Positions 6,707 through 63,495 of a stretch of 64,000 nucleotides of DNA are shown piece by piece; the first letter of the stretch is position 1; every line of letters begins with the position of its first letter. The notes beneath the pieces were generated by a model that ran no database searches, had not been told where the DNA came from, and saw nothing but the letters and a program-made list of their open reading frames with translations. The translations under genes and the position numbers were made by a program. Origin of the DNA: Pristiophorus japonicus (taxonomy: Eukaryota). The DNA lies in contig NC_091979.1 in assembly GCF_044704955.1 (NCBI RefSeq), positions 48,236,001 to 48,300,000 of the forward strand. Reading direction: 5' to 3'.

Positions 6707-7910
6707 TCAGCCTTCGTGCAATGCGGTGTGAAGTATCAGCTGCTGATGCAAGGCTCTTGCAATGGTGTAAGATGCATGAGGCCTCCTCTCCCATTGGTCT
6801 GCGGGTTGAAGTGGTGGCATGGGTTCCTCGTCCTCTTCCTCATTCTCATTGACAGCCTTCTCCACTGCCCCCACCCTCACCTGAGGTGGTTCTGCAGTCC
6901 TCCAGTGGGAAATCTTGTTCCCTCATGGTGGTTGAGTTGTGTAGCATGCAGCGCACCACAGTGAACTCACCGACCTGCTCAGGGGAGTATTGCAGGGAGC
7001 CTCCAGAGTGGTCCAGGAATTGGAAACGCTGCTTTAGCACTACAATTGTCTTCTCAACGATGTTGCTGTGACTATATGGCAGATATTGTAGTGACGCTCG
7101 CCTTCTGTCCGCGGTTTGCGGAGGGGGGTCTCATGAGCCAGGTGGCGAGCCCGTAACCTTTGTCCTCCAGCATCCAGCTCTGGCCTTCTAGCTGCTGCTC
7201 AAACATCTGTGTCACACTGTTCTCATGCAAGGTGAAAGCATCATGGATGCTCCCTGGAAATTTTGCATCTACTGCCATGATACGCTGCATATGGTCGAAG
7301 ACGATCTGTACGTTCAGCGAGTGGAATCCCTTTCGGTTTCGGTAAACCTCCGGATTGTCTAAAGGTATTCGCAGAGCGATGTGCGTACAATCAATGGCAG
7401 CCTGTACCTTAGGGAAGCCAGCAACTCGTGCAAAGCATAAAGCCCTCTCATTTTGTGCCTCCCTGGTCATTGGGAAGTTGATGAAGTCGTCCCTGCGTGC
7501 GTACAGTGCCCTTGTCACCTGGCGAATGCAGTTATGTGTAGCGTGCTGCGAGATGCAGCATACGTCCCCAGTTGGTGCCTGAAAGGAGCCGGAGGCATAG
7601 AAGGAAAGTGCCACAGTTACCTTGAACTCGACGGGCAATACAGTCCTCCTCGCGCTTGTAGGCTGTATGTCTGCCTTTATGAGCTGGCATATCTCTGTGA
7701 CTACCTCTTTTCAAAAGCGCAGCCTTCTCGCACACTGTGCCTCAGTCAGGTGCAGGTATGAAATCCTGTCCCCTCAGGGTAAGGCCTCCTCCCCAGAAGT
7801 CTGCAACCTCTTTGATTATGCAGACAATGCTGCCAAATAATCCTTCTTTGATGAAAAACCATAAGAGCATAAGTACGCACCACATATGACAAAGTTAGAC
7901 TAGCCCCGAT
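6707..7910 (-). pseudogene. Harbinger DDE transposase (HARBI1-like), decayed
   Basis: ALSFYASG, AIDCTH, RNRKGFHSLNVQ, PGSIHDAF, DKGY, LKQRF..LDHSGG.LQYSP across frameshifts. Start codon apparently mutated to ATC at ~7910. Confidence 0.9.
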
Positions 7911-8688
7911 TCTTTAAATGTCCTTAAATGTCCTTAACAACTCATTCTAAACTCACTAAAAGCTCAATCTGTGAATGCAGCCTTCCCTCCAAAAGCTTTA
8001 ACTCAGCTCCGTTTTCCAAGATCGCACTGTTGACGCTGATTTCAATTGGACTCGACCAGTTATGGCAAGCTTGTTAAAAATGGTATTTAGCACTGTCTTA
8101 AAAATATCCTTATTTGGGGAAACTCGCAAAAACGGCATTATCATTGAGTCTGACCCCGAGTGACGTCACAAAAACGGTTCTCAAAAAAATAGGCCCTTAT
8201 TTTTTAAGGACGGCGCTACACCACAGCGAAACTAGCAAAATGGCCTTAAATTTATTTATCACCAAAAGAAAACTTTTAGCTCCAAAAAATGGAGCTAAAT
8301 CGATCGTTACGGTGGCAAATTTCTGGCCCACGGAGTCCAATCCTCATAAAACTCCATTTTTTTTATCAAATTGTTCAAATTAAATTAACATGGATTTGGC
8401 CTAGATTTGGATTCAAAAATCTGTATTTTAAGAAGCACGTAATATCACATCTGTTTGAGTGTTGAAAGTGGGATTAGACTTGTGGCACTTAACTTAATTT
8501 TCTCAAGTATGGCTTCTGCAGCACTTAGGCTCAAAGGAGGTTCAAGTGCTCTAGCCAACAATATAATGTAGGAACAAGGAAAGACAATTTAGCTTATCCA
8601 GCTTTCTATTTCACATGTGTCTTTTTTCAAGACCAGAACTGATTAATTTTTATCTATTTCTTATCCTAAATTAAGCATGGATTGTTAC

Positions 8689-12670: not shown

Positions 12671-13494
12671 GAAACATAAAGTTGTGGACAGAGTGATCAA
12701 CATTGGGAACTTGTTACGAGTCAGATTTAAGCCAAGAGAAATATCCAACAGAGTGGTGCTGGTCACTTCTATAAGCAGTCTTGCCATCTTCTGAATGGCA
12801 AATCAAAATGGCAGTGGACAAGTTTTGATTAAACACTTTCTGAGTGTCCAAGTTCTGAACCTTCCAATCAGGGTACCAAAAAAAACTTAACTTCCGGATT
12901 GACTGTACTCTGTGCGCTGTTGCCTAACAGTCAGTCTTTCAAAGAACTGAACTTTTCACTTGAGATTTGCAGTCTTTTTATTACTCATTAACCCGTGATG
13001 GAAAATGTACCCACTTTTTGGTGAAGGGTACAGTGAGCAAACACAAAAAGACCTACAAATCATAAAGGGCAGGATTTCCCTTTTAATTTTATGCAAGGGA
13101 AGCAGGAAATGAGCAGAGTTGTGCTTTATTGCCTGCTTCCTGTCGTACAGTTCATGCTTGAAACGGCTCAGTGCCCGCATTGATTGCTTTGTCGGCAGGT
13201 CAACCACAAAACCTCAAACTATGAAAAGTCAAAATACACACTTTACAATAAGTCAACTCACTTAAAGCTGCAGTACTCCTTCTTTTGTATGCATTCTTCC
13301 AGTACAATCTTACCAGCACATAGGATGCCTAGAATCAGAATTGGCAAAACGTGTGAATATTAGAGACTAAGGGCATAAATGGAGTGGAAAGAAGTTAGGA
13401 GGAAAATTAGAAACTGGCTGATGTCCTAATTTAATCAATTCACTGCAGTTTTTGGACGTGGTAACTTTTAAGTTCAGGAATATGTGTACATGCA

Positions 13495-13862
13495 AATGTT
13501 TGTGACGGAGGAGCAGCGAGAGATTGTAGCGGAGGTGCGGCAAATGAGGGTACGGGGCCCAGAAGAGCCCAGGGCCCAGGGGCAGCACGGGCAGCCCACA
13601 CTGTGATATGTGTGTGCACTAGGTCTGTGCAGCAGAGCAGGTCTCCAATCGTCCTGGTTAACCCTTGCCACTGGATAAAGGTCTAGCTCTGCCAAGCCCG
13701 TGTGGTGGCTGATGTGCAACGACCATCACACGTTAAAAAAAATCCACACACAGGCATCTTCCACCCCTTCAATTGGAATTCAGGACAGGAATATCGGGTC
13801 CTTCATTGAAACATCTGTGAACCCATCCCTTTTGGTTCGAGGGACTGCCTTTGATGATGATG
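13495..13862 (+). mobile_element. SINE-like element with an RTE-type 3' tail
   Basis: A second, highly similar copy lies at 47412-47856 (-). Ends GAGGGACTGCCTTTGATGATGATG, like the RTE tail at 43446. Confidence 0.75.
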
Positions 13863-16019: not shown

Positions 16020-17320
16020 TAAAGAACACGGACAATATAAACTTTCATTTGGAAATGCATGGGTTAATTAAGGAGAGCCAGTATGTATTTGTTAAAGGCA
16101 AATCGTATCTGACTAACTTGATTGAATGAGGTAAAAGAGAAGGTTGATCAAGGTAGTGCAGTAGATGTTGTATATGTATACTTTCGGAAGGCATTCAACA
16201 AAGTGCCACAAAGGAAGCTTATTAAGAAGATGGAAGCCCATGGAAGTAAGTGGAAAGTGGTGATATGGATACAAAATTGGCTCAGTGACAGGAAGTAAAC
16301 AGTGGTGATGGATGGATGTTTTTCAGACTGGGAGGCGGTTTGCAGTGGTGTTCCCCAAGGGTCAGTTTTGGATCCATTATTCTTTGCAATTTTTATAAAC
16401 GACCTAGACTCGGTTGTAGGGAGCATCATTATAGCGTTTGCAGATGGTACACAACTTGGAAAAGTAGTAGGTCATAACTTCAGGATGATATAGACTGGAT
16501 GGTGAAATGGGCAGAAGCATGGCAGATGGAGTTCAATGCGGACAAGTGTGAAGTGATGCACTTTGGGAGGACTATTATGGAATGATAGTATGCTACAAAT
16601 GGCACAATTTTGAAAAGTATAGATGAGCAGAGAGATCTTGGTGTCCATACACACAAATCCTTAAAGGTAGCAGGGCAAATTGATAAGGTGGTTAAAGAAA
16701 CATATGGGTTACTTGGATTTATAAATAGAGGAATACAATATAAAAAAAGAAGTCATGCTAGAACTTTATAAATCACTGGTTAGGCCTCAGCTTGAGTTTT
16801 GTGGACAATTCTGGGCACCACACTTAAGGAAAGATGTACAGACATTCGAAAGGGTGCAATGAAGGTTTATCAGGATATTATCAGGAATGAGGGGCTTCAG
16901 TTAAGAGGAGAGGTTGTAAAAGTTAGCACTGTTCTCCTTGGAACAGAGAAGGTTAAGGGTGAAATAATAGAGATTTTCAAGATGATGAGAGGTTTTGATA
17001 GAGTAAATAGGGAAAAAATATTCCCTCTGGTGAGTGGGTCAATAACTAGAGGTCACAGATTCAAAATCATTGGAAAAAGATCTAGAAGAGGATGAGGAGA
17101 ATTTGTCAGGATCTGGAATGCTATACCTGAAAAGGTGGTGGAAGCTGGTTCCATCAGTAATTGTAAAAGCGAGTTGGACAGGTACTGGAGGAGAAGGAAC
17201 TTACAGGGTTACGGACAAAAAGCAGAGTTGTGGAACTAAGCACGACGGCTGTTTCAAAGAGTCAGCACAGGCACAACGGGCCGAATGGCCTCCTTCTGTG
17301 CTGCAAGTTTCTATGGTTGT
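16020..17320 (+). mobile_element. Old CR1 RT/3' fragment
   Basis: [12 protein letters not shown], many stops. 3'UTR hairpin GGCCGAATGGCCTC at 17279-17292. Confidence 0.85.
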
Positions 17321-20282: not shown

Positions 20283-21950
20283 AGGGGGGATGATTAAGAA
20301 GTTGGCAGACAACACTAAAATTGGCTGTGTGGTTGATAATGAAGAGGAAAGTCATGGGCTGCAGGAGGATATTAATCTACTGGTCAGGTGGGCAGAGCAG
20401 TGGCAAATGGAATTTAGTTCGGAGAAGTGTGAAGTAATGCACTGTGTGAAGTAAAGAAAGGGTATACACATTAAACGGTAGGCCACTTAGATGTGTAGAT
20501 GAACAAAGGGGAGCGCTTATTCACAGATACCTGAAGGTAGCAAGCCAGATGGATAAGGTGGTTAAGAAGACATATGGAATGCTTGCCTTTATTGACCGAG
20601 GCATAGAATACAAGAGCAGGGAGGTTATGAATAAATTGTATAATACACTGGCCGCCGTATTATAGGAAAGACATGATTGCACTAGAGAGGATGCAGAGGA
20701 GATTTACGAGGAAGATGCCTGGAATGGAGAATCATAGCTATTAGTAGAGATTAGATAGGCTGGGTTTGGTCTCCTTGGAGCAGAGGAGGCTGAGAGGAGA
20801 CCTCATTGAGGTGTATAACATTTTAAGGGGCCTGGACACTAAAATTGGCTGTATGGCACTGGAATTTAGAAGAATGGGAGGGGATCTCGTAGAAGCATAT
20901 AAAATTCTGACAGCATTGGACAGGTTAGATGCAGGAAGAATGTTACCAATGTTGGGGAAATCCAGAACCAGGCGTCACAGTCGAAGGATATGGGGTAAGC
21001 CATCTAGGACCGAGATGAGGAGAAACTTTTTCACCCAGAGAATTGTGAACCTATGGAATTATCTATCACAAAAAGTTGTTGAGTCCAGTTCATTGGATAT
21101 ATTCAAAAGGGAGTTAGATGTGGCCCTTATGGCTAAAGCGATCAGGGGGTATGGAGAGAAAGCAGGAGTGGTGTACTGAGGTTGCATGATCAGCCATGAT
21201 CATATTGAATGATGGTACAGCCTCAAAGGGCCGAATGGCCTGCTCCTACATCTATTTTCTATGTTTCTATGATATGGTGGATAGCAAGGGCCTATTTCTC
21301 TTGATGGAGGGGTCAATTACGAGGGGGCATAGGTTTAAGGTGGTTGATGGAAGGTTTAAAGGGGATTTGATGGGAAGCTTCTTCACGCGCAGAGAGTTGT
21401 GGGGGTCTGGAACTCAATGCCTGGAAAGGTGGTAGAGACAGAAACCCTCACCACATTTAAAAGGTGCTTGGATGGGCACTTGAAGTGCCGTGACCTGCAA
21501 GGTTACGGATCTAGAGCTGGTAAATGGGATTAGACTGGATAACCTCTTGTTGGCTGGCATAGATACAATGGTAAGTACTTCAGGGAATCTAATATGGCCA
21601 GAGTGATCTCCTGAACAAGTTTTGATCACCTGGATGGGTTGGAGAGGAATTTTCCCAGATTTTTTTCCCCCAATTGACCTGGGTTTTTATCTGTTTTTTT
21701 GCTACTCCCAGGAGATTTCATGGCTCGGGGTGGGGTGGAGTGTGGGGTGTTGCGATACATGGGGTATAACAGTTGTGTGGGGCGGACTGGTTGGGCCGGA
21801 TGCTCTTTACCTGTCCACCATTGTTCATTGTTCATAGGTTTATATGTAACCTTCAGGGCTGCTGACCGAGGGCCGTGTTGATCTTTGTTGGTCAGCACGG
21901 ACACGATGGGCCAAAATGGCCTCCTTCTACGCTGTAAATTTCTATGTTTC
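20283..21950 (+). mobile_element. CR1 with a long 3'UTR, interrupted by a younger CR1 3' fragment (~20853-21270)
   Basis: Host reads LRGLD before the insert and resumes MVDSKGLF after it. Both copies have TTCTATGT tails. Confidence 0.85.
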
Positions 21951-22762: not shown

Positions 22763-23828
22763 ATAGAAATGTTTGTCTTTTTAACAGAAATGGGTGCAGC
22801 CAGATTGGGAGCAGTATGTTTAACCAGCGATTATTGGACCATTAACTCTCCATTCACCGCCTGGCAGAGAGCCAGAAAATCTTCTTTTGTCATTTTTGCT
22901 TGCTAACTGCTCATCTAGTCTTTTGTTAATAAATAGGTCGATATGTTTTGAAAAGATGAATTATATGTGAGAAATGATACAATCAGCACCATTGTGTTAA
23001 TATGCTTCATGTTTGCAGAAAAGCATGATTCAGATCAATATATCCACAAGAATGCTCACTCTGCCATTGTGAGTTTAAAAAAAGAGTCAAACTTTAAATT
23101 CACATTACCATGGAAGTTAAACATTACAAAAGGTCAAGATACTGTGCTATATATTTCACTTGATGCCCTCAATTTTACACAGAGGTCACAATCAAAGCTC
23201 TTTAAACATCACTGGGCAAACATGAAGCATATTAACACAGCTGTGCTAGGCAACAAAGAGACACTAAAGTCACTTGGTTGTAAAACTACAGGTTTACTGG
23301 TAAGCTAAGCTTCGAATAAATTTACCCACTGCTATCTTCTGCACATATCCAGCTGGAAGTAGAGGTCAGCCTGGACACAGAAATATCAGAACTCCCAACC
23401 CTAAAATAATGTCAGTTCAGAAACTAGGCCCCAAGTTTCGTGCCGCGGCGAAAACGGCACACCTCCGAGCTGGGCGCCTGTTTTTCGCGCCGAAAACTGC
23501 GCCTAAAAAAAAATCCGATATTCTCAAGCTCCTTGGAGCTCGATGTCTGCTTGGTGCGGCGCGCTCTTCGCAGCAGGGGGCGGAGCCTAACACTGGCGCC
23601 GATTTTCTAAGCAGCAGGGGGCGGGTACAATTTAAATTAGCCTTCGTGGTGCCGGCAACCCTGCGCGTGCGCGTTGGAGCGTGCGCGCACGCGCAGTCTC
23701 ACACAAACATTGGCACTCGGCCATTTTTAAAAATACTGCAGAAAAAGTGAAGATTTGTTTCTTGGACCCCTGCAAAGGCTTGTAATTTAATTTTTTTTGA
23801 TATTTCTGTGTGTGAGGGAGTGCTTTTA

Positions 23829-23935
23829 ACTCTTTTAGAGTCTACCTGCAAAAACATAAAACATTAAATCGTGCCACCCAACCTGGGTGACACACCAGAC
23901 ATTTACAAGGCCCTTTTTTTTCCTTTTTTTTTTGG
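23829..23935 (-). mobile_element. 107-bp retroposed insert (L1/Tx1-type signature) with a 15-bp TSD
   Basis: GAGGGAGTGCTTTTA duplicated at 23814-23828 and 23936-23950. Target ends in TTTT/A. Confidence 0.7.
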
Positions 23936-24091
23936 GAGGGAGTGCTTTTAGCAGCACTGCTGAATAAATCACCTGCTGAAATCAGTGAGTTCAGCTTTTC
24001 ACTGCTAAACTTGCAGAACCGGTGCTGCATCGGTGCATGCAAATTAAGGACTGTGTGTTTGGAGAAATAAGAGTGCCAATTCAACTTTGCA

Positions 24092-24720
24092 ATGGATCAA
24101 CGTCCACCAAGAACAAAGAATTTCTCGCATGAGGAAGTGGAGATATTAGTCAACGTAATTGAGCAGAGATGGCAGGAGCTAGATACCAGCAACAGAGGTC
24201 ACATAAAAGTGCCACCAAAAGAAATGAAGAAACGCTGGAACCAGGCAGCAGGTTGATTTAAGGGGCCATGATGCATTTTCAGGACTTACCCTCTTCCTCG
24301 CATGCTGCACCACAGTCCCAGCCTGCGCCTCCCTGTGTAATGGTGCCGCTTGCAACACCAAGCATCCCACCGTCCGTGCCCGTGCCTCCCAGTGTAGCGG
24401 TGCCACAAGGCAGACCCAGGCAGAGGAGCAGGAGATTGGAGGCACACTCTCCTGAGATGCAGCGTGCAACAGATGCGGCTCAGGTTGTGGCATTGGGTAT
24501 GGAGACCAATGAGCTTACCCGATCACTCATCGGTGGCGTCAGTGCAGTAGGTGAAGAGTTGACGGTCCTGACAGGAGAAATAGCAGTAATGACACGGGAA
24601 CTTAGGAAGGGAATGTCCGAGGGAGTGCAATCGACGGCACAGGCCGACAGGGAGGGCCTGGTTGAGGTAGGTGCTGTAATAAGGGCACACAGCCCAGCCA
24701 ATCAAATGACACCCCCATGA
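24092..24720 (+). pseudogene. Harbinger Myb/SANT-like gene with internal deletion
   Basis: MDQRPPRTKNFSHEEVEILVNVIEQRWQEL...KKRWNQ (24092-24244) is joined directly to last-exon sequence (SPEMQ...LTRSL) homologous to 5790-6413. Confidence 0.8.
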
Positions 24721-24826
24721 GGAAGTGAACATTCACTGAGATATGGATGAGACATAGTTGCAGCCTTTCTTTGCTGCTTTTGTTCTTGTTCTTGATGTAG
24801 CTGTAGTAGAGTTTTTCAAATTGAAA

Positions 24827-25400
24827 TTGTTTTGTAAGTTTTGTAACTTTACAACTTATAAGGGATCTTATGGTTTTTAAGTGATCTTATAGTGTAAATG
24901 CTCTCACATTTTTTTGTATCTTATTTAATTTTGCACCTAAAAAGTGATCCTGAAGTTTAAGTGTTCTTCAGAGTGTAAGATTTTTCACAATGAAACTGTT
25001 TTGTAAGTTTTGTAACTTTACAACTTATAAGGGATCTTATGATTTTTAAGTGATCTTATAGTGTAAATGCTCTCACATTTTTTTGTATCTTATTTAATTT
25101 TGCACCTAAAAAGTGATCCTGAAGTTTAAGTGTTCTTCAGAGTGTAAGATTTTTCACAATGAAACTGTTTTGTAAGTTTTGTAACTTTACAACATATAAG
25201 TGATCTCAGGGTTTTCAAGTGATCTTATAGTGTAAATGCTATCACCTTCTGTAAATTATTTAATTTTGCAACTAAAAAGTGATCTTGAAGTGTAAGTGAT
25301 CTTAGAGTGTAAAATTTTTCACATAGAAAGTGTTTTGTAACTTTTGTAACTTTACAAGTTTATAAGTGATCTTAAAGTTTTGAAGTGATCTTCAAGAGTC
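24827..25400. repeat. Tandem repeat, ~169-bp unit x ~3.4, AT-rich
   Basis: GTTTTGTAA unit starts at 24829, 24998, 25167 and 25332. Internal AAGTGATCTT subrepeats. Confidence 0.9.
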
Positions 25401-25567
25401 ATATTAAAAAGTATAGTTTGATACAACAAATATTTTATTACAGTGACGTTAACTTTTCAATAAAATATTTTTTCATTAAAACTGTTTCATGTTCCAGTAA
25501 CACAACACAACGTAGGAACAACTGCAAAGAATAAACATGTCCATATGCAAAAGTGGTCGCAGAGCCC

Positions 25568-26790
25568 TCAGGCATCAGTAGTTGAAGCGTTCACGGATGA
25601 GCTGCTGGCGCAAGTCTCGAGCAACGTTAAAGGGGCATGATGGACGGCCCTCCTCCGACCTCGTGCTCCGGCATCAGGCACTTGCATGCTTTCCTGATTG
25701 TCGTTATCATCCACATCCTGGTCTTCCGTAATACTATCATCATGCACTGGACCCTCACATCGGTCTTCTGGTTCCACGACCAGCTCCTGCTGCCTTATGA
25801 TGGCTAAGTTATGAAGCATGCAGCACACAACAGTGAAGTGACTGACAATCTGAGGAGAGTATTGCAACTGTCCTCCGGAATGGTCCAGGCATCGGAATCG
25901 CTGTTTCAATATGCCAATGGTCCTCTCAATGATGCTGCGCGTCGCAATGTGCGCCATGTTGTATTGACGGTCAGCTTCTGTCCGTGTCACGCGTATGGGC
26001 GTCATGAGCCAGGTGGTCAAGCCGTACCCTTTGTCTCCCAGTAGCCAGCTATGCCCTTCTGGCTGCTGCTCAAACATGTCAGATAGAACGCTGTCGCGTA
26101 GGATGAATGCATCGTGGGTGCTGCCAGGGTATCTCGCGTCGACTGACATGATGCGCTGCTTGTCGTCACACACGAGCTGCACATTGATAGAGTGGAAACC
26201 TTTCCTATTTCGGTACTGCTCAGATTCCTTCACGGGCGCTCGCAAGGCTATGTGGGTACAATCAATGCAGCCCTGTACCTTTGGGAAGCCGGCAATCCTG
26301 AAGAAGCCCACAACCCTCTCATGGATCGCTTGTGCGGTCATTGAGAAATTGATGAAGTCATTCCTTCGCGCATAAAGTGCAGCCGTGACCTGGTAAATGC
26401 AGGCATGTATTGCACGTTGAGAGATGGCACACACATCTCCAGTTGTAGCCTGAAACGATCCCGAGGCATAGAAAGAAAGTGCAGCTGTTACCTTCCCTTC
26501 AACAGCCAAGGCAGTGTCCTTCTGCTTCTGGGCTGCAAATCTGCTCTCACCATATCACAGATCTCAGTGACAACTTCTCTGCGAAAACGCAGCCTTTTCA
26601 CACAATCAGCCTTGCTCATGTCCAGGTACGAGCGCCTGGTTCAATATTGTCGGCGTGGGCAAGGTCTCCTGCCCATCAACCTACGGGCTACGACGTTCCT
26701 GGTGTGGTGAGCTCTAATCAATTCTCTCCTATGCAGTGAATTGATGGCAAACCATTGCATAATACGTGGTGTTGACAATACAGCACCCAT
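25568..26790 (-). pseudogene. Harbinger DDE transposase, nearly intact
   Basis: ATG 26790 (MGAVLSTPR) follows acceptor TTTGCAG. TGA at 26641-26643 and a frameshift at ~26515. Then a 313-aa ORF with CIDCTH, YPGSTHDAF, GDKGY, IERTIGILKQRF. Confidence 0.93.
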
Positions 26791-26836
26791 TCTGCAAATT
26801 TAAATATAAAACTGTCGATGTGGCTGCCTCTCCCTG

Positions 26837-27138
26837 TCCAAATGGCCTCAGTCCCCCTCACAGCTCGAAGGCTGCTGCTGTATCTTTGGCTGCCGGCCAG
26901 CCACTGACGCCGCCCCTAAAGCATGGCCGAATGGCCTCAAGCACCATAAAGAGCTGCGTGTGTCCTGCGTTGATTCTTCGGCTGCCGGCCAGCCACTGAC
27001 ACCGCTGCTATCTCATGGCCGAATGGCCTCACGTCGGTCCGCTGATTCTTCGGCTGCCGGCCAGCCACTGACGCCGCTGATATCTCATGGCCGAATGGCC
27101 TCGGGTCCGTCCGGTGCTGCTTCTTCGCGGCCAGCCAC
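26837..27138 (+). repeat. 62-bp direct repeats separated by variable spacers
   Basis: Repeats at 26877-26938, 26969-27030 and 27041-27102, plus partial copies. Each ends ATGGCCGAATGGCCTC. Spacers are 27, 30, 10 and 13 bp. Confidence 0.85.
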
Positions 27139-27984
27139 GAAGAGAATGAAGGCCTGCCTCAAGCACTGCAGCTCAGCTCAAAGCTTGCTGCCGCTGCCGT
27201 CGAGACACTGACGCCACACCCCCGCCTGTCTCCAACATGAAAGGCCTGCCTGAAGCACTTTCACTCAGGTAGGAACATGGTTTATTTAATCTTTTCTTTG
27301 CTTATAAATTTTTATTCAGGTTGGATTTATTTGTATAATATTTGTATAAGTATAACTAAGGATTGATTGTAGAATTTAATGACTTCCCTTCCCCCCCTCA
27401 CCTCGTTCCCTACACCTAATTTGTAACCTACACCTGATTTTCTAAAGTGTAGACAAGGTTTTTTCGAGCGTACAAAAATCTTCACTTACTCCATTCTAAG
27501 TTAGTTTGGAGTAAGTTTTCACTCACGAAACTTTGAAATCAGGCGTAAGTGGCCGGACACGCCCCCTTTTGAAAAAAAAATTCTGTTCCAAAGTGAAACT
27601 GTTCTACCTGACTAGAACTGGAGCAAACTAAATGTGGAGAATTCCGATTTCTAAGATACTCCGTTCTACACCAGTTGCTCCTAAAAATCAGGAGCAAATC
27701 ATGTGGAAACTTGGGGCCCTAGATGTGAAACATAATTTACAACTTGGAAAGGTACCGGGCACAAGGTAGTATTATTGTTTCATTTGGTGAACAGTGTGCT
27801 CTTAATGGTGGGAGACATCAGTTCTAATGGGGAACAGGCATTTTTCCCCACACTCACTGTATCAGCGTTCCTCGGTTAGGTGGAGCATGAGTTAGGTGCA
27901 GTAAAACGTCTCCCAAAAAGTGTCTCAAAAACGTACCCTTAGCCCTAATGGCAGAAAAGCATCAGTGTAAATATTTTCATTGCT

Positions 27985-29919: not shown

Positions 29920-31975
29920 TGTATCTGGAGTAAAAATAAAATGGGGAAGGTGGCTCAACCGTGGCTAACAAGGGAAATTAAAGATAGTGTTAAAACCAAG
30001 GAAGAGGCATATAAATTGGCTAGAAAAAGCAACAAACCTGAGAACTGGGAGAAATTTAGAATTCAACAGAGGAGGACTAAGGGTTAAATTAAGAGGGGGA
30101 AAATAGAGTACGAGAGGAAGCTTGCAGGGAACATAAAAACTGACTGCAAAAGCTTCTATAAATATGTGAAGAGAAAAAGATTAGTGAAGACAAACATAGG
30201 TCCATTGCAGTCGGATTCAGGTGAATTTATAATGGGAACAAAGAAATGGCAGACCAGCTGAACAAATACTTCGGTTCTGCCTTCACGAAGGAAGACACAA
30301 ATAACCTTCCGAATGTACTAGGGGACAGTGGGTCTGGTGAGAAGGAGGAACTGAAGGATATCCTCATTAGGCGGGAAATTGTGTTAGGGATATTGATGGG
30401 ATTGAAGGCCGATAAATCCCCGGGGCCTGATAGTCTGCATCCCAGAGTACTTAAGTAAGTGGCCCTAGAAATAGTGGATGCATTGGTGATCATTTTCCAA
30501 CAGTCTATCGACTCTGGATCATTTCCCATGGACTGGAGGGTAGCTAATGTAACACCACTTTTTTAAAAAGGAGGGAGAGAGAAAACGGGTAATTATAGAC
30601 TGGTTAGCCTGACATCAGTAGTGAGGAAAATGTTGGAATCAATCATTAAGGATGAAATAGCAGCGCATTTGGAAAGCAGTGACAGGATCAGTCCAAGTCA
30701 GCATGGATTTATGAAAGGGAAATCATGCTTGAAGAATCTTCTGGAATATTTTGAGGATGTAACTAGCAGAGTGGGCAAGGGAGAACCAGTGGATGTGGTG
30801 CATTTGGACTTTCAAAAGGCTTTTGACAAGGTCCCGCGCAAGAGATTGGTGTGTAAAATCAAAGCACATGGTATTGGGGGTAATGTACTGACGTGGATAG
30901 AGAACTGGTTGGCAGACAGGAAGTAGAGAGTCGGGATAAACAGGTCCTTTTCTGAATGGCAGGCAGTGACTAGTGGAGTGCCGCAGGGCTCAGTGCTGGG
31001 ACCCCAGCTCTTTACAATATACATTAACAATTTAGATGAAGGAATTGAGTGTAATATCTCCAAGTTTGCAGATGACACTAAACTGGGTGACGGTGTGAGC
31101 TGTGAGGAGGATGCTAAGAGGCTGCAAGGTGACTTGGACAGGTTATGAGTTGGCAAATGCATGGCAGATGCAGTATGTGGATAAATGTGAGGTTATCCAT
31201 TTTGGGGCAAAAACACGAAGGCAGAATATTATCTGAATGGTGATAGATTAGGAAAAGGGGAGGTGCAACGAGACCTGGGTGTCATGGTACATCAGTCATT
31301 GAAAGTTGACATGCAGGTACAGTGGGCGGTGAAGAAGGCAAATGGTATGTTGGCCTTCATAGCTAGGGGATTTGAGTATAGGAGCACGGAGGTCTTACTG
31401 CAGTTGTACAGGGCCTTGGTGAGGCCTCACCTGGAATATTGTGTACAGTTTTGGTCTCCTAATCTGAGGAAGGACATTCTTGCTATTGAGGGAGTGCAAT
31501 GAAGGTTCACCAGGGATGGCTGGACTGTCATATGAGGAGAGACTGGATCAACTGGGCCTTTATTCATTTGAGTTTAGAAGGATGAGAGGGGATCGCACAG
31601 AAACGTACAAGATTCTGACGGGACTGGACAGGTTAGATGCAGGAAGAATGTTCCCGATGTTGGGGAAGTCCAGAACCAGGGGACATAGTCTTAGGATAAG
31701 GGGTAGGCCATTTAGGACTGAGATGAGGAGAAACTTCTTCACTCAGAGAGTTGTTAACCTGTGGAATTCCCTGCCACAGAGAGTTGTTTAAGCCAGTTCA
31801 TTGGATATATTCAAGAGGGAGTTAGATATGGCCCTTACGGCTAAGGGGATCGGGATATTGAGAGAAAGCACGAAAGGGGTATTGAGGGAATGATCAGCCA
31901 TGATCTTATTGAATGGTGGTGCAGGCTCGAAAGGCCGAATGGCCTACTCCTGCACCTATTTTCTATGTTTCTGTA
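29920..31975 (+). mobile_element. CR1, 5'-truncated, ORF2 fragmented
   Basis: RT motifs with several stops and frameshifts. Tail ends at ~31975. Confidence 0.93.
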
Positions 31976-38430: not shown

Positions 38431-38934
38431 CATCGAGCTCAAAATTGGCCAGGAGTTGCTCCGTTTTTTTTGGAGCAACTTGATTTTTCTGGAGTATCTT
38501 AATAACCCCCATTTTGCACCAGTTAGTTAGTGAGTTAGTTGGGATTTTTTTAGTTTAGTTTTTTTTTCAAAAGGGGGCGTTACCAGCCACCCACGCCTGT
38601 TTTGGCCATTTAGGCCACTTTGGCCAGTTAACAGTTACTCCAAACTAACTTGTGGCCGCTTGTGAAAACCGGTGGGGAGAGATAAGAAATCAGAGCAGGT
38701 AGGTACATCGGAGGCCAGCAAAACTTAATGACTCGATTAAAGAATGTGAATAGGATCAAACAGCTATACAGAACATCATATGATAAACTTCGCAAAGTTA
38801 ATTTACTATACAACAGAAGCATTCATGGAAGCTTAAACGACAAAAATAAAAGAAATAAAGAGACAAAACATACTTACATAATTTTTTTCAAAATATCCAA
38901 GTAAGTCCTACCCTACCTTCATCTTCAGCCCAGG

Positions 38935-39530
38935 AACATTACAGATTACTATAAACACTGACAGCAGCCAGTAACAATCAATCAAACCAAATGAAGATCC
39001 AGAATGGGGATTGCTTCTGAATGTATCCTTCCAGCGACGCAGCAAGTCCAGATTCCAGTCCCGGCGACCTTCACTTCGGGACCAGCCTCAGGCCTGCACT
39101 GATGAGTTCGAGGATGATTCTCCTTTTTCAGCAGGGTTTGCTGGGCTGTAACCAGATTTCTTCTCTCCTCCTCTCTTCTTCCACATAACGCCACCGATGA
39201 CCAGAGCAATCAGGGTGACGGCAGCAATCACAATTCCAACAATCAAACTGAGATTTGTTCCCTTTGGGGATCCTGGAGTCACTCAGAATGTCCCGTCCAA
39301 GTCTCAGTTCTTCACTCCTGTGTTGCCACTCTGCTCATACTGACAGGAATAGGTGGCTCCATGCTCGGACTCAATCTCAGCCCATCTTGTCAGCTGGTAG
39401 GTTCCGTCCTGGTTGGGCAGAATGCCACTGGATTCCGTGTCCGTGATCGGCTCGCGATTTCTCAGGAGGGTGATTTCGATATCACGAGGGTAAAAACCCG
39501 TGACTAGAGACAAGAGAGTTGGGTCAATTT
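38935..39530 (-). pseudogene. Intronless MHC class I heavy-chain fragment: alpha3 (Ig C1), TM, cytoplasmic tail, 3'UTR
   Basis: KLTQLSCL[+2 nt]VTGFYPRDIEITLLRN...GILPNQDGTYQL...YSCQY, then in the same frame after two TGA stops LIVGIVIAAVTLIALVIGGVMWKKR...GYSPANPAEKGESSSNSSVQA*. No introns between domains. Confidence 0.9.
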
Positions 39531-39584
39531 GGCCACTTGGCCTGGGATAGGGGCGGGACGCACACAGAGATGCTGAGGGCGAGG

Positions 39585-39675
39585 AGCTACTGCGCATGCG
39601 CGCACACTCCAACGTGCATGTGCAGACATCCTGGCACTGTTTTCAGCTCCGGACGCTGGCTCCGCCCCCGACTCG
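39585..39675 (-). promoter_or_regulatory. MITE internal promoter-like motifs (GC box, NRF1-like)
   Basis: GGGGCGGAGCC and GCGCATGCGCA on the minus strand. The GC box and degenerate NRF1-like motif recur at 62241-62330 and upstream of the Myb gene in element #2. Confidence 0.55.
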
Positions 39676-39794
39676 ACTGGCCACGCTGCGCGAAGACCCG
39701 GGACTAATTTTTTCGGCGCACTTAGAAACGAAGAAAAGCTGCGCAACTCGGGTGAGTGCGCCAAAAATCGGCATGGCCCAATTTTGAGCCCATT

Positions 39795-43781: not shown

Positions 43782-43883
43782 TAAGAAGGATATTAAGAAG
43801 GACAAGAGCAGAAATGTTGTAGGAACACCATCGCCTCCAACTTTCCCTCCAAGCGACACAATGTCTTGACTTGTACATATAAT

Positions 43884-46165
43884 GGGGTCAAGTTTCTGCC
43901 TGAGTTGCTTCTATTTTTTTGGAGCAACTAATTTAGAATGGAGTATCTTAGAAATTGCAATTCTCGGCCTTTAGTTTGCTCCAGTTCTAGTGAATTAGAA
44001 CAGTTTCATTTTAGAACAGATTTTTTTTTCAAAAGGGGGCATGTCCGGCCACTAACGCCTGTTTTGTAAGTTTAGGCTGCGAAAACTTACTCCAAACTAA
44101 CTTAGAATGGAGTAAGTGCGGATTTCTGTACGCTCAGAAAAACCTTGCCGACACTTAGAAATCAGGCATATGGAACGAAAGATGGTGGGGGGGGGGGGGG
44201 GAGGAGGTTTACAAACATTAAACACTTCACTTTTACAAATAAAGAGCCATCATCAATATTAAATGATAAATAAACCAATAAATAAACCAAATCAATCCAA
44301 ATAAATTAAAAAATTAAAAGTTATAAAAAAATTAAAAATCATTCAATAAATAAAAAATTATTTCTACTCACCTTCTGCAGCACCAGGGAGAAGGGGGGAA
44401 GAGAAGAAGATAGGGGGGAGAAGGGAGGAAGATGGGGGGAGAAGGGAGGAAGATGGGGGGGAAAGAGAGGAAGATGGGGGGGAGAAGGGAGGAAGATGGG
44501 GAGAAAGAGAGGAAGATGGTTGGGCGAAGGGAGGAAGATGGGGGGGAAAGAGAGGAAGATGGGGGAGAAGAGAGGAAGATAGGGGGGGGAAGAGAGGAAA
44601 ATGGGGGGAGAAGAGAGGAAGATGGTTGGGAGAAGGGAGGAAGATGGGGGGGAAAGAGAGGAAGATGGGGGAGAAGAGAGGAAGATAGGGGGGGAAGAGA
44701 GGAAGATGGTTGGGAGAAGGGAGGAAGATGGGGGGGAAAGAGAGGAAGATGGGGAGAAGAGAGGAAGATAGGGGGGGGAAGAGAGGAAGATGGGGGGAGA
44801 AGAGAGGAAGATGGGGGGAAGAGAGGAAGATGGGGGGAGAAGAGAGGAAGATGGGGGGAAAGAGAGGAAGATGGTTGGGAGAAGGGAGGAAGATGGGGGG
44901 AAGAGAGGAAGATGGGGGGGAAGAGAGGAAGATGGGGGGGAAGAGAGGAAGATAGGGGGGGAAGAGAGGAAGATGGTTGGGAGAAGGGAGGAAGATGGGG
45001 AGAAAGAGAGGAAGATGGGGGGGAAGAGAGGAAGATGGGGGGGAAGAGAGGAAGATGGGGGGGAAGAGAGGAAGATAGGGGGGGAAGAGAGGAAGATGGT
45101 TGGGAGAAGGGAGGAAGATGGGGAGAAAGAGAGGAAGATGGGGGGGAAGAGAGGAAGATGGGGGGGAAGAGAGGAAGATGGTTGGGAGAAGGGAGGAAGA
45201 TGGGGAGAAAGAGAGGAAGATGGGGGGGAAGAGAGGAAGATGGGGGGAAGAGAGGAAGATGGGGAGAAAGAGAGGAAGATAGGGGGGAGAAGAGAGGAAG
45301 ATGGGGGGAAGAGAGGAAGATGGGGGGGAAGAGAGGAAGATGGGGGGGAAGAGGGGAAGATGGGGGGGAAGAGAGGAAGATGGGGGGGGAAGAGAGGAAG
45401 ATGGGGGGGAAGAGAGGAAGATGGTTGGGAGAAGGGAGGAAGATGGGGAGAAAGAGAGGAAGATGGGGGGGAAGAGAGGAAGATGGGGGGAAAGAGAGGA
45501 AGATAGGGGGGAGAAGAGAGGAAGATGGGGGGAAGAGAGGAAGATGGGGGGGAAGAGAGGAAGATGGGGGGGGAAGAGAGGAAGATGGGGGGGAAGAGAG
45601 GAAGATGGGGAGAAAGAGAGGAAGATAGGGGGGAGAAGAGAGGAAGATGGGGGGAAGAGAGGAAGATGGGGGGAAGAGAGGAAGATGGGGGGGAAGAGAG
45701 GAAGATGGGGGGGAAGAGAGGAAGATGGGGGGGAAGAGAGGAAGATGGGGGGGGAAGAGAGGAAGATGGGGGGGGAAGAGAGGAAGATGGTTGGGAGAAG
45801 GGAGGAAGATGGGGAGAAAGAGAGGAAGATGGGGGGGAAGAGAGGAAGATGGGGGGAAAGAGAGGAAGATAGGGGGGAGAAGAGAGGAAGATAGGGGGGA
45901 GAAGAGAGGAAGATAGGGGGGAGAAGAGAGGAAGATTGGGGGGAAGAGAGGAAGATGGGGGGGAAGAGAGGAAGATGGGGGGAAGAGAGGAAGATGGGGG
46001 GGAAGAGAGGAAGATGGGGGGGAAGAGAGGAAGATGGGGGGAAGAGAGGAAGATGGGGGGGAAGAGAGGAAGATAGGGGGGAGAAGAGAGGAAGATGGGG
46101 GTGGGGGGGAAGAGAGAAGACGACGAAGGAGAAGCCCCGCACGCAGCCGATGCCGGGCTGCCGAC
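43884..46165 (-). mobile_element. Harbinger MITE lacking its promoter end, with minisatellite cargo
   Basis: TIR GGGGTCAAGTTTC at 43884. Arm homologous to 27270-27718 (reverse complement). Donor AAG|GTGAGT at 44371. Confidence 0.82.
44388..46115. repeat. Polypurine minisatellite, ~19-21-bp unit (GGGGGGAAGAGAGGAAGAT variants)
   Basis: Direct inspection: ~1.7 kb with higher-order blocks of variant units. Confidence 0.97.
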
Positions 46166-47947: not shown

Positions 47948-50297
47948 CAGCCTCGACTCACTGGTAGCACTCTTATCTCTCAGTCAGAAGAAACTGACTG
48001 CAAAAGCTTCTATAGATATGTGAAGAGAAAAAAATTTGTGAAAACAAACATAGGTCCCTTGCAGTCAGATTCAGGTGATTTTATAATGGGGAACAAAGAA
48101 ATGGCGGACCAGTTAAACAAATATTTTCACGAAGGAAGACACAAATAACCTTCCAGAAATACTAGGGGACCGAGGGTCTAGTGAGAAGGAGGAACTGAAG
48201 GAAATCCTTATTATGCGGGAAATTGTGTTGGGAAATTGATGGGATTGAAGGCCGATAAATCCCCTGGGCCTGATAGTCTGCATCCCAGAGTACTTAAGGA
48301 AGTACCCCGAGAAATAGTGGATGCATTGGTGATCATTTTCCAACAATCTATCGATTCTGGATCAGTTCCTATGGACTGCAGGGTAGCTAATGTAACACCA
48401 CTTTTTAAGAAAGGAGGGAGAGAGAAAACGGGTAATCATAGACCTGACATCAGTCGTGAGGAAAATGTTGGAATCAATTATTAAAGATGTAATAGCAGTG
48501 CATTTGGAAAGCAGTGACGGGATCGGCCCAAGTCAGCAAGGATTTAAGAAAGGGAAATCCTGCTTGACAAATCTTCTGGAATTTTTTGAGGATGTAACTG
48601 GTAGAGTAAACAAGGGAGAACCAATGGATGTGGTGTATTTGGACTTTCAAAATGCTTTTGAAAAGGTCCCACACAAGAGATTAGTGTGCAAAATTAAAGC
48701 ACATGGAATTGGGGGTAATGTACTGACGTGGATAGAGAACTGGTTGGCAGACAAGAAGCAGAGAGTCGGGATAAACGGGTTCTTTTCAGAATGGCAGGCA
48801 GTAACTAGTGGGGTGCCGCAGGGCTCAGTGCTGGGACCCCAGCTATTTACAATATACATTAATGATTTGGATGAGGGAATTGAGTGTAATATCTCCAAGT
48901 TTGCAGATGACACTAAGTTGGGTGGCGGTGTGAGCTGTGAGGAGGACGCTAAAAGGCTGCAGGGTGACTTGGACAGGTTAAGTGAGTGGGCAAACACGTG
49001 GCAGATGCAGTATAATGTGGATAAATGTGAGATTATCCACTTTGGTGGCAAAAACACGAAGGCAGAGTATTATCTGAATGGCGGCAGATTAGGAAAAGGG
49101 GAAGTGCAACGAGACCTGGGTGTCATGGTACATCAGTCATTGAAAGTTGGCATGCAGGTACAGCAGGCGGTAAAGGCGGCAAATGGTATGTTGGCCTTCA
49201 TAGCTAGGGGATTTGAGTATAGGAGCAGGAAGGTCTTACTGCAGTTGTATAGGGCCTTAGTGAGGCCTCACCTGGAATATTGTGTTCAGTTTTGGTGTCC
49301 TAATCTGAGGAAGGACGTTCTTGCTATTGAGGGAGTGCAGCAAAGGTTCACCAGACTGATTCCCGGGATGGCAGGACTGACATATGAGGAGAGACTGGAT
49401 CGACTGGGCCTGTATCCACTGGAGTTTAGAAGGATGAGAGCGGATCTCATAGAAACATATAAAATTCTGACGGGATTGGACAGGTTAGATGCAGGAAGAA
49501 TGTTCCCGATGTTGGGGAAGTCCAGAACCAGGGGACATAGTCTAAGGATAAGGGGTAAGACATTTAGGACTGAGATGAGGAGAAACTTCTTCACTCAGAG
49601 AGTTGTTAACCTGTGGAATTCCCTACCGCAGAGAGTTGTTGATGCCAGTTCATTGGATATATTGAAGAGGGAGTTAGATATGGCCCTTACGGCTAAAGAG
49701 ATCAAGGGGTATTGAGATAAAGCAGGAACGGGGTACTGAGGTGAATGATCAGCCATGATCTTACTGAATGGTGGTGCAGGCACGAAGGGCCGAATGGCCT
49801 ACTCCTGCACCTATTTTCTATGTTTCTATGTCATAGATTCAAGCCCCACTCCAGGACTTGAGCACATAATCTATCTTTTTGTTTCAGACATTAAAGAAAA
49901 ACTTGGATTTATATAGCACCTTTCACGACCACCGGATGTCTCAAAGCGCTTTACAGCCATTTAAGTACTTTTGGCGTGTAGTCATTGTTATAATAGGAAA
50001 TATAGGAATTAAATCAAGGCCCCATCTCCCCTCTCAGGTGAGCATAGAAGCACTATTTGAAAAACAGCAAAGGGTTTCTCCCAATATCCTGGCCAACATT
50101 TATCCTTCAACCAACACCAGTAAAACAGTCTACCCAATCACTTAGCTCATTACAGCTTGTGGGTGCTTGCTGTGCAAAAATTGGCTGCCACATTTGCCGA
50201 CATTACAACAGTGACTGCACTTCAAAAGTACTCTACTTCATTTTATGACATCCTGCAGATATGAAAGATGTTATATCAATGCAAGTTCTTTCTTTCT
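47948..50297 (+). mobile_element. Deu-SINE split between its A and B boxes by a CR1
   Basis: Head at 47948-47990. Resumes GATTCAAGCCCCACTCCAG at ~49836. Body runs to ~50297. Confidence 0.6.
47991..49830 (+). mobile_element. CR1, 5'-truncated; 419-aa RT/C-terminal ORF
   Basis: ORF 48456-49715 and the TTCTATGT tail. Confidence 0.94.
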
Positions 50298-62091: not shown

Positions 62092-63495
62092 GGGCCCAAG
62101 TTTCCACAAGAAAAAAACGGGCGCCCCTCCGAGCTGGGCGCCCGTTTTTCGCGCCTAAAACGGCGCCTAAAAAAATCCTCGGTATTCTCCACCTACTTAC
62201 AGGTCTTCTGGCAGTCGGCGCAGCCAGCACGAGCTGTGTGGGGGGCGGAGCCAGGTCCCGGCGCTGAAAACAGTGCCGGGACCTCTGCACATGCGCGCTA
62301 CAGTCGGCACGCAAGTGCAGTAGCTCCAGGCGCCGAACTGTGTGGGAGGGGCCCGAAGCACGCAGCCCCTAACCCTGGCTGAATGGCCTCACTGGGGCTG
62401 CGTCAATGAGGCTCCTCCCACAGCCAGCTCCTGCTCCCCGCCCGACCAGACCCGACACTCGCTCCCCCCCCCCCACCCCCGCCGACCAGACCCGACACCC
62501 GCTCCCCCCCCGCCGACCCGACCCGAGACCCGCTCCCCCCCCGACCCGACCCGAGACCCGCTCCCCCCCCCCCACCGACTGACCCGACACTCGCTCCCCC
62601 CCCCCCCCCGCCGACCAGACCCGACACTCGCTCCCCCCCCCCCACCCCCGCCGACCAGACCCGACACCCGCTCCCCCCCCGCCGACCCGACCCGAGACCC
62701 GCTCCCCCCCCGCCGACCCGACCCGAGACCCGCTCCCCCCCCGCCGACCCAACCCGAGACCCGCTCCCCCCCCCCACCGACTGACCCGACCCGCGCTCCT
62801 GTGACCCGACACCCCCCCCTCTCTCCTCACCCCCCCTCCGCTCTCTCCTCACCCCCCTCCGCTCTCTCCTCACCCCCACCCCCGCTCTCTCCTCACCCAC
62901 CCCCTCTCTCTCCCTCCCCCCCCTCCGCTCTCTCTCCCTCCCCCCCTCCGCTCTCTCTCCCTCCCTCTCTCTCTCTCTCTCTCCCCCTCCCGCTCAGCGG
63001 CACGAACGGCTGCAGAATTCTCCCTGGCTGAAGCACTTTCACACAGGTAGGAAGATGGTTTATTTAATCTTTTCTTGGCTTATAAATGTTTATTTAGTTG
63101 GATTTATTTGCATAATATTTGTATAAGTATAAATAAGGATTTATTGTAGAATTTAATGAGTTCCCTCCCCCCCCCCACCTCGTTCTGGACGCCTAATTTG
63201 TAACCTGCGCCTGATTTTTTAATGTGTAGAACAGGTTTTTTCAGTTCTACAAAAATCTTCACTGGCTCCGTTCTACTTTAGTTTGGAGTACATTTTCACT
63301 GTGGAAACTTTCAAATCAGGCGTCAGTGGCCGGACACGCCCCCTTTTGAAGAAAAAATTCTGTTCTAAACTAGAACTGTTCTACCTGACTAGAACTGCAG
63401 AAAAAAAAATGTGGAGAATTGCGATTTCTAAAATAGTCCGTTCTCCACCAGTTGCTCCTAAAAATCAGGCGCGAATCATGTAGAAACTTGGGCCC
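62092..63495 (+). mobile_element. Harbinger MITE inserted in CR1 ORF2
   Basis: TIR GGGCCCAAGTTTC / GAAACTTGGGCCC. 3-bp flanks ATA/ATT; removing the element and one copy restores CR1 spacing. Right arm highly similar to 27247-27718. Confidence 0.93.
62435..63000. repeat. C-rich minisatellite (CCGACCCGACCCGAGACCCGCTCCCCCCC variants) followed by CT-rich repeats
   Basis: Direct inspection. Confidence 0.95.

What the first reader, a model, noticed from the sequence alone, without database searches (positions are those of the whole stretch)
26925..26938. Harbinger slot hairpin matches the CR1 LINE 3'-UTR hairpin
GGCCGAATGGCCT(C) in the Harbinger repeats (26925, 27017, 27089; variant at 62377) is the same 13-14-mer found just before the tail of CR1 copies (17279, 21229, 31933, 49788), in the same sense. 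Known: RTs of the CR1/L2 group recognise a 3' stem-loop in their RNA, and SINEs borrow it. Inference: Harbinger transcripts may recruit CR1 RT, allowing template switching that places cDNA next to the motif. This would explain spliced cargo in a DNA transposon.
Basis: inference. Interest (0 to 1): 0.7.

Follow-up and report, generated by a model that had tools for sequence, protein, structure and literature searches.

The report
Hairpin edge of cargo-grabbing transposon
In a shark genome a short hairpin shared by a cut-and-paste transposon and the commonest retrotransposon marks the edge where the transposon picked up at least 13 kinds of foreign DNA, likely by patching breaks rather than by borrowing the retrotransposon's reverse transcriptase.

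Summary
The match is real. The 13-mer lies at 26925, 27017 and 27089 in a Harbinger element (23427-27718) and before the tails of CR1 copies, in the same sense. In related Harbinger MITEs foreign cargo does start just behind the homologous site (five classes within 0-6 nt), including the window's own spliced MHC class I piece (39530-38937).

The CR1-RT reading is not supported. Subfamilies with the exact match showed no cargo (0 of 30 A copies; 0 of 77 closed interiors). The cargo-rich subfamily (81 of 90 copies) has a broken stem and is not predicted to fold the CR1 hairpin (0 of 34). No CR1 tail follows the motif, and two genome-wide chimera patterns each gave one hit, neither a chimera. Cargo includes antisense mitochondrial ND5 and four unspliced single-locus pieces. 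One piece ends inside a CR1 hairpin, yet its join skips the shared 13-mer.

Best reading: a native repeated Harbinger unit at a break-repair hot spot, filled from DNA or cDNA. The likeness to CR1 is convergence or an old captured LINE tip. The scan noted the spliced cargo family before on other DNA; the junction clustering and mixed templates were not in the notes I saw.

The parts
23427..27718 (+). Element A: near full-length PIF/Harbinger transposon with 13-bp TIRs and a 3-bp target duplication
   Evidence: TIRs at 23427 and 27706-27718, matching 3-bp flanks; 322 exact anchor hits in genome
24092..24244 (+). Myb/SANT-like exon of element A (weak match)
   Evidence: PF13873 E=0.0013, 19.1 bits, below the 21.7 cut-off
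25568..26554 (-). Harbinger transposase remnant; the motif units lie 5' of it on the opposite strand
   Evidence: DDE_Tnp_4 E=9.5e-40
26836..26848 (+). Diverged unit 0 of the motif in element A
   Evidence: 2 mismatches; same form in 29 of 30 A copies
26925..26937 (+). Motif unit 1 (the finding)
   Evidence: exact match
27017..27029 (+). Motif unit 2, inside a 72-bp tandem repeat
27089..27101 (+). Motif unit 3, inside a 72-bp tandem repeat
62092..63495 (+). Element B: non-autonomous Harbinger inserted in a CR1; the interior after the motif holds only C-rich repeats
62345..62415 (+). Long imperfect palindrome of element B with the motif variant (62377-62389) at its tip
   Evidence: z=-2.36 here, z=-6.34 in copy L112
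38435..39791 (-). Element E: Harbinger MITE of subfamily Q carrying host cargo
   Evidence: arms match MITE copies; sequence; related copies elsewhere
39531..39542 (-). Motif variant of element E (stem kept, second loop base changed; this copy also CpG-decayed); cargo starts at the next base
38937..39530 (-). Intron-free MHC class I-like cargo (alpha3, transmembrane, tail, part of 3'UTR), sense, no poly(A)
   Evidence: C1-set E=2.3e-12; best PDB matches MHC class I-related; intron-bearing gene L472 matches only to the exon end
17279..17291 (+). CR1-type 3' hairpin tip
21229..21241 (+). CR1 3' hairpin tip
31933..31945 (+). CR1 3' hairpin tip
49788..49800 (+). CR1 3' hairpin tip on a two-tier stem, followed by the microsatellite tail

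Best explanation
The 13-mer is the core of a native, repeated Harbinger unit that sits at the 3' edge of the conserved left arm in the MITEs, and foreign cargo is joined just behind it, likely because breaks or gaps inside the element are patched by microhomology-guided repair that switches template at this fold-back site. Shown: the unit recurs in five subfamilies (1 to 6 or more copies per element); junctions cluster at its 3' edge; templates are mixed (intron-free mRNA copies, mitochondrial sequence, single genomic loci). Inferred: the unit is kept because it is a cis-site (for example for the Myb-like protein or the promoter); each subfamily's hairpin makes the nascent strand pause and switch; spliced cargo enters as cDNA or retrocopy DNA made elsewhere by a poly(A)-primed RT; transposase then amplifies each filled master. 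The identity with the CR1 hairpin is likely a convergent short palindrome or the relic of an old captured LINE tip, and is not needed for capture.
For: Unit with flanks wider than the CR1 match in A, B, D (6 or more tandem copies), P and Q. Upstream flank columns are as conserved as the motif, though they were the anchor. Subfamily-level changes hit the loop (21 of 83 copies; Q) and the stem (74 of 81 P copies). Cargo in 81 of 90 P copies (counted by eye) against 0 of 30 A copies and no shared foreign cargo in 77 closed interiors of 90 unbiased left-arm copies. Predicted loop-closing pair: CR1 median 1.00 (n=23), B 1.00 (30), A 0.54 (56), P 0.00 (34). ND5 antisense, open for 170 aa in the mitochondrial code. 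X, W, T and V are each contiguous with one genomic locus (L349, L372, L413, L424). MHC and RPS13 cargos end inside the 3'UTR without poly(A). A full poly(A) RPS13 retrocopy exists outside any Harbinger (L061). X was inserted 5' of the motif, and its join ignores the 13 shared bases. Gap-filling with short microhomology is the published Pack-TIR route (PMC8277862 section 8); capture of mtDNA, cDNA and genomic DNA at breaks is stated in PMC11724301 (passages).
Against: Five classes join within 0-6 nt of the stem end, and two of them (HYPK, W) replaced earlier cargo right back to that edge; survival of a required site alone does not explain this. A second group at +25 to +38 matches the hairpin-to-tail distance of CR1. 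All four coding mRNA-type cargos are in sense. The MHC cargo joins at the base of an intact stem. CR1's own loop varies between families, so loop changes do not exclude recognition. Cargo X ends inside a same-sense CR1 hairpin of its source locus. No founding cargo is CR1 sequence although CR1 fills roughly a third of the window, so templates are not random DNA. The unbiased sample held no cargo-bearing P copy either, so rare cargo in B could be missed. The cis-site role is untested.
Confidence: 0.62

Rival explanations
1. One reading: plus-strand MITE transcripts bind CR1 RT through the hairpin. An RT that is copying another RNA would jump onto the Harbinger RNA just 3' of the hairpin, and the hybrid cDNA would repair the element.
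For: Junction clusters at 0-6 and 25-38 nt 3' of the stem (by eye). Coding cargos are in sense. B folds into a two-tier hairpin like CR1's. X ends in a CR1 hairpin. CR1 RT template switching has been proposed for bird SINEs (PMC5729268 passages).
Against: Cargo goes with the stem-broken subfamily, not the exact match. No microsatellite tail, which the literature pairs with the hairpin (PMC8665684, PMC5729268 passages). Chimera patterns gave 1 hit each, neither a chimera. No CR1 RNA as founding cargo. Antisense ND5 and unspliced genomic pieces. Opposite strand to the transposase frame in A.
Confidence: 0.12
2. Origin only: an ancestral Harbinger captured the tip of a LINE 3' end, as these elements capture other DNA, and the piece was later duplicated as a repeat unit. 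The match would be homologous but have no RT function now. This is compatible with the best explanation.
For: The CR1 hairpin is among the commonest words in the genome. An old LINE family has a tail that matches the P unit over about 22 nt with one stem difference (47 exact pattern hits, 20 inspected). Cargo X shows that such tips get captured.
Against: The search pattern was built from the Harbinger sequence, so the extended match is partly selected. The 5' flank and the LINE's terminal repeats are not shared, and the 3' flanks differ among A, B, D and Q.
Confidence: 0.35
3. Pure survivorship: captures fall anywhere, and only elements that keep the left arm through the unit are amplified, so the motif merely marks the limit of what may be lost.
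For: 84 of 90 unbiased copies keep the motif. The empty slot between motif and right arm is only about 40 nt. 5 of 13 junctions in the first 7 of 41 positions has p about 0.06 (hand arithmetic).
Against: HYPK and W each replaced several hundred bases of earlier cargo back to +3 and +5 (about 2e-4 if uniform, hand arithmetic). X lies upstream of the unit.
Confidence: 0.2

Closest known systems
CR1 3' hairpin plus 8-mer microsatellite, and CR1-tailed SINEs (PMC8665684, PMC5729268, PMC3747384: passages read; Suh 2015 seen only as a reference title)
   Same: Same 13 letters and sense as the shark CR1 hairpin tip; subfamily B folds a similar two-tier stem.
   Different: Internal position; no microsatellite tail; no retroposed SINE-like copies found; stem broken in the cargo-rich subfamily. 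SINEs share a long 3' tail with their LINE, not 13 bases.
Animal Pack-TIRs, multicopy class (Tan et al. 2021, PMC8277862: abstract and section 8 read; supplements not opened)
   Same: TIR element with captured host sequence, short microhomology joins, internal breakpoints, later spread by transposition.
   Different: At least 13 multicopy cargo classes in one Harbinger lineage; one narrow slot with junctions piled at a hairpin edge; intron-free mRNA copies and mitochondrial sequence beside genomic pieces; nested replacement of cargo.
Templated insertions at double-strand breaks (PMC11724301, passages read)
   Same: Mixed capture of mitochondrial DNA, cDNA and nuclear DNA with microhomology.
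   Different: Here the events are germ-line, focused on one transposon site and amplified by a transposase; no repair pathway was tested.
Harbinger3_DR subterminal Myb-binding motif (as cited in PMC9710019, passages read; the primary paper was not held)
   Same: A short motif repeated in the inner arms of a Harbinger.
   Different: The shark unit is longer, 290-880 bp from a TIR, and binding is untested.
Fungal transposon-amplified housekeeping gene (PMC6710886) and primate retro-DNAs (PMC11195612); search listing only
   Same: DNA transposons combined with reverse-transcribed sequence.
   Different: Not read; by title retro-DNAs are DNA transposons moved by retrotransposition, which was not seen here.

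Membership tests
CR1 3' RT-recognition signal | Hairpin with the CR1 stem and loop forms in the RNA | tested here: inconclusive
   Predicted loop-closing pair above 0.5 in 30 of 30 B, about half of 56 A, 0 of 34 P and 4 of 15 Q-MHC copies
CR1 3' RT-recognition signal | 8-mer microsatellite tail right after the hairpin | tested here: not met
   Not seen after the motif in the sampled A, B, P and Q copies; the Harbinger-arm plus CR1-tail pattern gave 1 genome hit, another Harbinger subfamily
CR1 3' RT-recognition signal | Lies at the 3' end of a transcript | not testable with these tools
   Internal in the DNA element; in A on the strand opposite the transposase frame; no transcript data
CR1 3' RT-recognition signal | Bound by CR1 ORF2p | not testable with these tools
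   needs a binding assay
CR1-tailed SINE | Dispersed retroposed copies ending in the LINE tail | tested here: not met
   the three right-truncated or unclosed copies inspected keep the left TIR and have no tail
PIF/Harbinger transposon (element A) | TIRs with 3-bp target duplication | tested here: met
PIF/Harbinger transposon (element A) | DDE_Tnp_4 transposase | tested here: met
   E=9.5e-40
PIF/Harbinger transposon (element A) | Separate Myb/SANT gene | tested here: inconclusive
   PF13873 E=0.0013, under the cut-off, one exon only
Multicopy Pack-TIR (subfamilies P, Q) | Host sequence between intact TIRs at many loci | tested here: met
Multicopy Pack-TIR (subfamilies P, Q) | Parent locus outside the element | tested here: met
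   RPS13 gene L368/L369, X L349, W L372, T L413, V L424, MHC-like gene L472; not found for HYPK, eL21-like; not sought for Z, S, R, PDCD4-like
Multicopy Pack-TIR (subfamilies P, Q) | Microhomology at breakpoints | tested here: inconclusive
   1-5 shared bases read by eye at several joins; not tabulated or tested against chance

The most novel reading that the evidence does not exclude
A DNA transposon lineage carries a LINE-derived or LINE-mimicking RNA hairpin that docks CR1 reverse transcriptase on its own transcripts, so that cDNA of cellular RNAs is written into a fixed slot and then spread by transposase: a two-class gene-capture machine.
Probability: 0.12. Interest if true: 0.85.

Novelty: new variant of a known kind. 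Interest (0 to 1): 0.42.

Why it matters
If the best reading holds, this is a natural record of many independent break-repair events at one hairpin edge, frozen and multiplied by a transposase. It shows which templates a vertebrate germ line uses (mRNA copies, mitochondrial and nuclear sequence) and gives a defined site for testing how Pack-TIRs fill. It also warns that a short match to a LINE hairpin is not evidence of RT recruitment.

Tried and rejected
Expression: no RNA holder listed; no reads were laid.

Earlier-finding look-ups near the window, by words and by sequence were empty.

HYPK parent gene: the region fetched was another cargo copy, so HYPK splicing is not verified here. PDCD4-like splicing was not checked.

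The eL21-like and RTE-like labels for two cargos are recalled, from reading translations by eye. Pfam gave no family for their frames, and PDB searches gave nothing under E=1.

First search for the source of X found only itself; the second found it. Stretches L458 and L459 around two sources were fetched but not analysed. The source of the eL21-like cargo was not among 30 of 95 hits inspected.

The idea that the unit repeated after the cargo is always a target-site duplication was rejected as general: some cargo-free copies have two units (L218) and others one.

Harbinger ends next to CR1 tails were considered as a link between the two families and rejected: flanking bases show a general A/T-rich target preference.

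The primary Harbinger3_DR paper is not held.

Junction offsets and microhomology lengths are by-eye readings, not a scripted table, and the clustering p-values are hand arithmetic.

Full report
OBSERVATION. The window lies in a 5.9-Gb genome. Its repeats look like a shark's (my recall; earlier scan notes say the same). The 13-mer named in the finding is exact at 26925, 27017 and 27089, one base off at 62377 and two off at 26836. It is exact at the four CR1 ends listed and at four further exact sites. The first group sits in element A (23427-27718), a Harbinger with TIRs, a 3-bp duplication, a DDE_Tnp_4 remnant on the minus strand and a weak Myb-like exon on the plus strand. The units lie 5' of the transposase frame, on the opposite strand. 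The 62377 copy is in element B, a MITE inserted in a CR1.

CHANCE. Per site the 13-mer has probability 1e-8 to 7e-8. Element A nevertheless shares two other unrelated 13-mers with about 6.7 kb of the window's CR1 and SINE sequence. Some shared 13-mer is therefore expected; one that lands on the CR1 hairpin and on a repeated Harbinger unit is not, so I looked for a cause. The CR1 form occurs exactly 223,760 times.

CONSERVATION ACROSS SUBFAMILIES. I sampled copies by anchors outside the motif. Left-arm anchor: 13,331 exact hits, 90 inspected. 34 have the exact 13-mer, 19 a changed first loop base, 12 a CpG transition, 9 a changed stem base as in subfamily P, 10 other variants and 6 no motif. 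By column, 21 of 83 alignable copies change the first loop base and 10 of 83 the stem base. Subfamily P: 218 anchor hits, 90 inspected; the stem base is changed in 74 of 81. Subfamily Q: 393 hits, 30 inspected; most change the second loop base. Subfamily D repeats the unit six or more times. A has 1-4 units in most copies. But the kept unit includes about ten upstream bases that CR1 lacks, and successful lineages altered loop or stem. CR1 families also vary their loop (83 ends anchored on the tail), so loop changes alone prove little.

FOLDING. CR1 ends fold as lower stem, internal loop, upper stem and four-base loop (2 of 3 window ends). B folds as a 70-nt imperfect palindrome with the motif at the tip (z=-6.3 in L112). 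The predicted loop-closing pair has median probability 1.00 in 23 CR1 ends, 1.00 in 30 B copies, 0.54 in 56 A units and 0.00 in 34 P copies. P is predicted to form a different five-pair hairpin that ends one base after the 12-mer (DNA folds).

WHERE THE CARGO IS. Earlier scan notes (e1-8625079, e1-8625044) named HYPK, RPS13 and PDCD4-like cargo; I refetched all three. Of 90 P copies 81 carry foreign sequence (by eye): HYPK 11, RPS13 15, eL21-like 12, W 11, Z 8, ND5 8, T 4, R 4, V 3, S 2, singles 3. X, PDCD4-like and MHC bring the multicopy classes to 13. The window's own cargo element, E (38435-39791, minus), holds an intron-free MHC class I-like piece. It starts at the base after an intact stem whose loop differs from CR1's. 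It is closer to the exon of the intron-bearing gene L472 (87.5-89.6% in 11 of 14 copies) than to intron-free paralogues. By contrast 0 of 30 A copies (one has a 90-nt native-looking variant) and 0 of 77 closed interiors in the unbiased sample (two hold single foreign stretches that look like later insertions, 13 interiors not closed) show cargo. That sample held no cargo-bearing P copy either, so rare cargo in B is not excluded.

JUNCTIONS (read by eye). Counting from the end of the 12-mer: MHC 0, HYPK +3, the short piece before RPS13 +4, W +5, V +6; one single at +15; Z and one Q cargo +25, T +31, RPS13 +33, ND5 and L125 +35, PDCD4-like +38; X about 30 nt upstream. The empty slot is about 40 nt, so 5 of 13 in the first 7 positions is only p about 0.06. 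But HYPK and W replaced hundreds of bases of older cargo back to that edge (about 2e-4). Both figures are hand arithmetic. The edge is probably a real hot spot, and this is the part of the finding that survives.

TEMPLATES. RPS13 cargo crosses two exon joins of the gene in L368/L369 and ends in the 3'UTR before the poly(A) site. HYPK ends in a poly(A)-like run joined into RPS13. The MHC piece ends mid-UTR. ND5 is antisense and mitochondrial. X, W, T and V (about 390, 218, 340 and 243 bp) each match one genomic locus without a gap or poly(A). X is the most telling case. Its source ends in a short CR1 3' end with the whole hairpin, and the cargo stops four bases into the stem and joins the element about 45 nt upstream of the Harbinger motif, not through the 13 shared bases. 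This cuts both ways. A CR1 hairpin at one of 8 traced genomic ends has a chance of roughly 2% at the window's density (hand arithmetic), but a hairpin can also stall a DNA polymerase. CR1 pieces inside interiors are at scattered positions and look like later insertions; none founds a cargo class.

TESTS OF RT RECRUITMENT. Passages in PMC8665684 and PMC5729268 describe the CR1 signal as a hairpin plus an 8-mer microsatellite at the very end; PMC3747384 describes SINEs sharing a long tail. No sampled Harbinger copy has the tail. Exact genome-wide patterns for CR1-upstream joined to Harbinger-downstream and Harbinger-upstream joined to the two main CR1 tails gave one hit each: an old LINE end and subfamily D. 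These patterns allow no mismatch, so decayed chimeras would be missed. Poly(A) retrocopies arise in this genome without any Harbinger (L061), so spliced cargo needs no special docking site.

ORIGIN OF THE MATCH. An old LINE family has a tail matching the P unit over about 22 nt (47 hits, 20 inspected). The pattern came from the Harbinger, so this is a lead. I put capture of a LINE tip at about 0.35, convergence of a short GC palindrome at about 0.5 and functional mimicry at about 0.12.

MECHANISM. Shown: native repeated unit, subfamily variants, junction cluster, mixed templates, amplification inside intact TIRs. Inferred: the unit is a cis-site that must be kept; a break or excision gap is repaired by synthesis that pauses at the local hairpin and switches by microhomology to whatever template is at hand; transposase spreads the filled copy. 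This follows the Pack-TIR gap-filling model (PMC8277862 section 8) and templated insertion at breaks (PMC11724301 passages). An unchecked note on a Tigger-like element in this genome also places captures beside an internal hairpin (e1-8585425); it agrees but is not support.

NOVELTY. Pack-TIRs and the CR1 signal are known. Searches for shark Harbinger cargo and for LINE RT recruitment by a DNA transposon returned no paper with 4 of 5 terms; the library lacks most subscription journals, and no supplements were opened. The spliced cargo family was noted earlier by this scan. The focused slot, the ND5, MHC and genomic cargos and the subfamily contrast were not in the notes shown to me. Verdict: observation confirmed, CR1-RT mechanism unlikely, underlying element a new variant of a known kind; interest 0.42.

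Noticed in passing
window 38435-39791 (-): Harbinger MITE carrying an intron-free MHC class I-like 3' piece; at least 15 similar copies among 30 loci inspected.
   Followed up: yes
L478-L485, L488 (G000:C3:316.6-319.3 Mb), also L487, L489: Cluster of MHC class I-like sequences with no intron between alpha2 and alpha3 or between alpha3 and the 3' part, outside any Harbinger.
   Followed up: no
L181:520-1030 (-), L152 and six more of 90 P copies: Mitochondrial ND5 piece amplified inside a nuclear MITE, still open for 170 aa in the mitochondrial code in L181.
   Followed up: partly
L061:1470-2050: Full-length poly(A) RPS13 retrocopy, about 99% identical to the exons in L368/L369.
   Followed up: partly
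L324-L343: Old LINE family whose 3' tail matches the P-subfamily unit over about 22 nt.
   Followed up: partly
L263:1450-1850: Distant Harbinger subfamily with six or more tandem degenerate copies of the unit.
   Followed up: partly
window 43880-46168 (-): Right arm of another Harbinger followed by 83 copies of a 20-bp purine/pyrimidine repeat; left arm missing.
   Followed up: no
window about 5040-8330: Second Harbinger family; transposase region 71% identical to element A.
   Followed up: no
window 27265-27275, 63045-63055, 38920-38910 (-): A splice-donor-like site closes the slot on the motif strand in A, B and E, so captured sense exons could be spliced outward; read by eye.
   Followed up: no
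347 TIR ends in fetched loci: 29 ends are preceded by a CR1-tail-like word under a loose pattern, about 11 by a real CR1 tail read by eye; fits an A/T-rich target preference.
   Followed up: partly
window 24812-25392: 3.5 copies of a 169-bp repeat between the Myb-like and transposase genes of element A.
   Followed up: no
window 13492-13836 and 47454-47798: Two copies (87%) of an unclassified 345-bp repeat.
   Followed up: no
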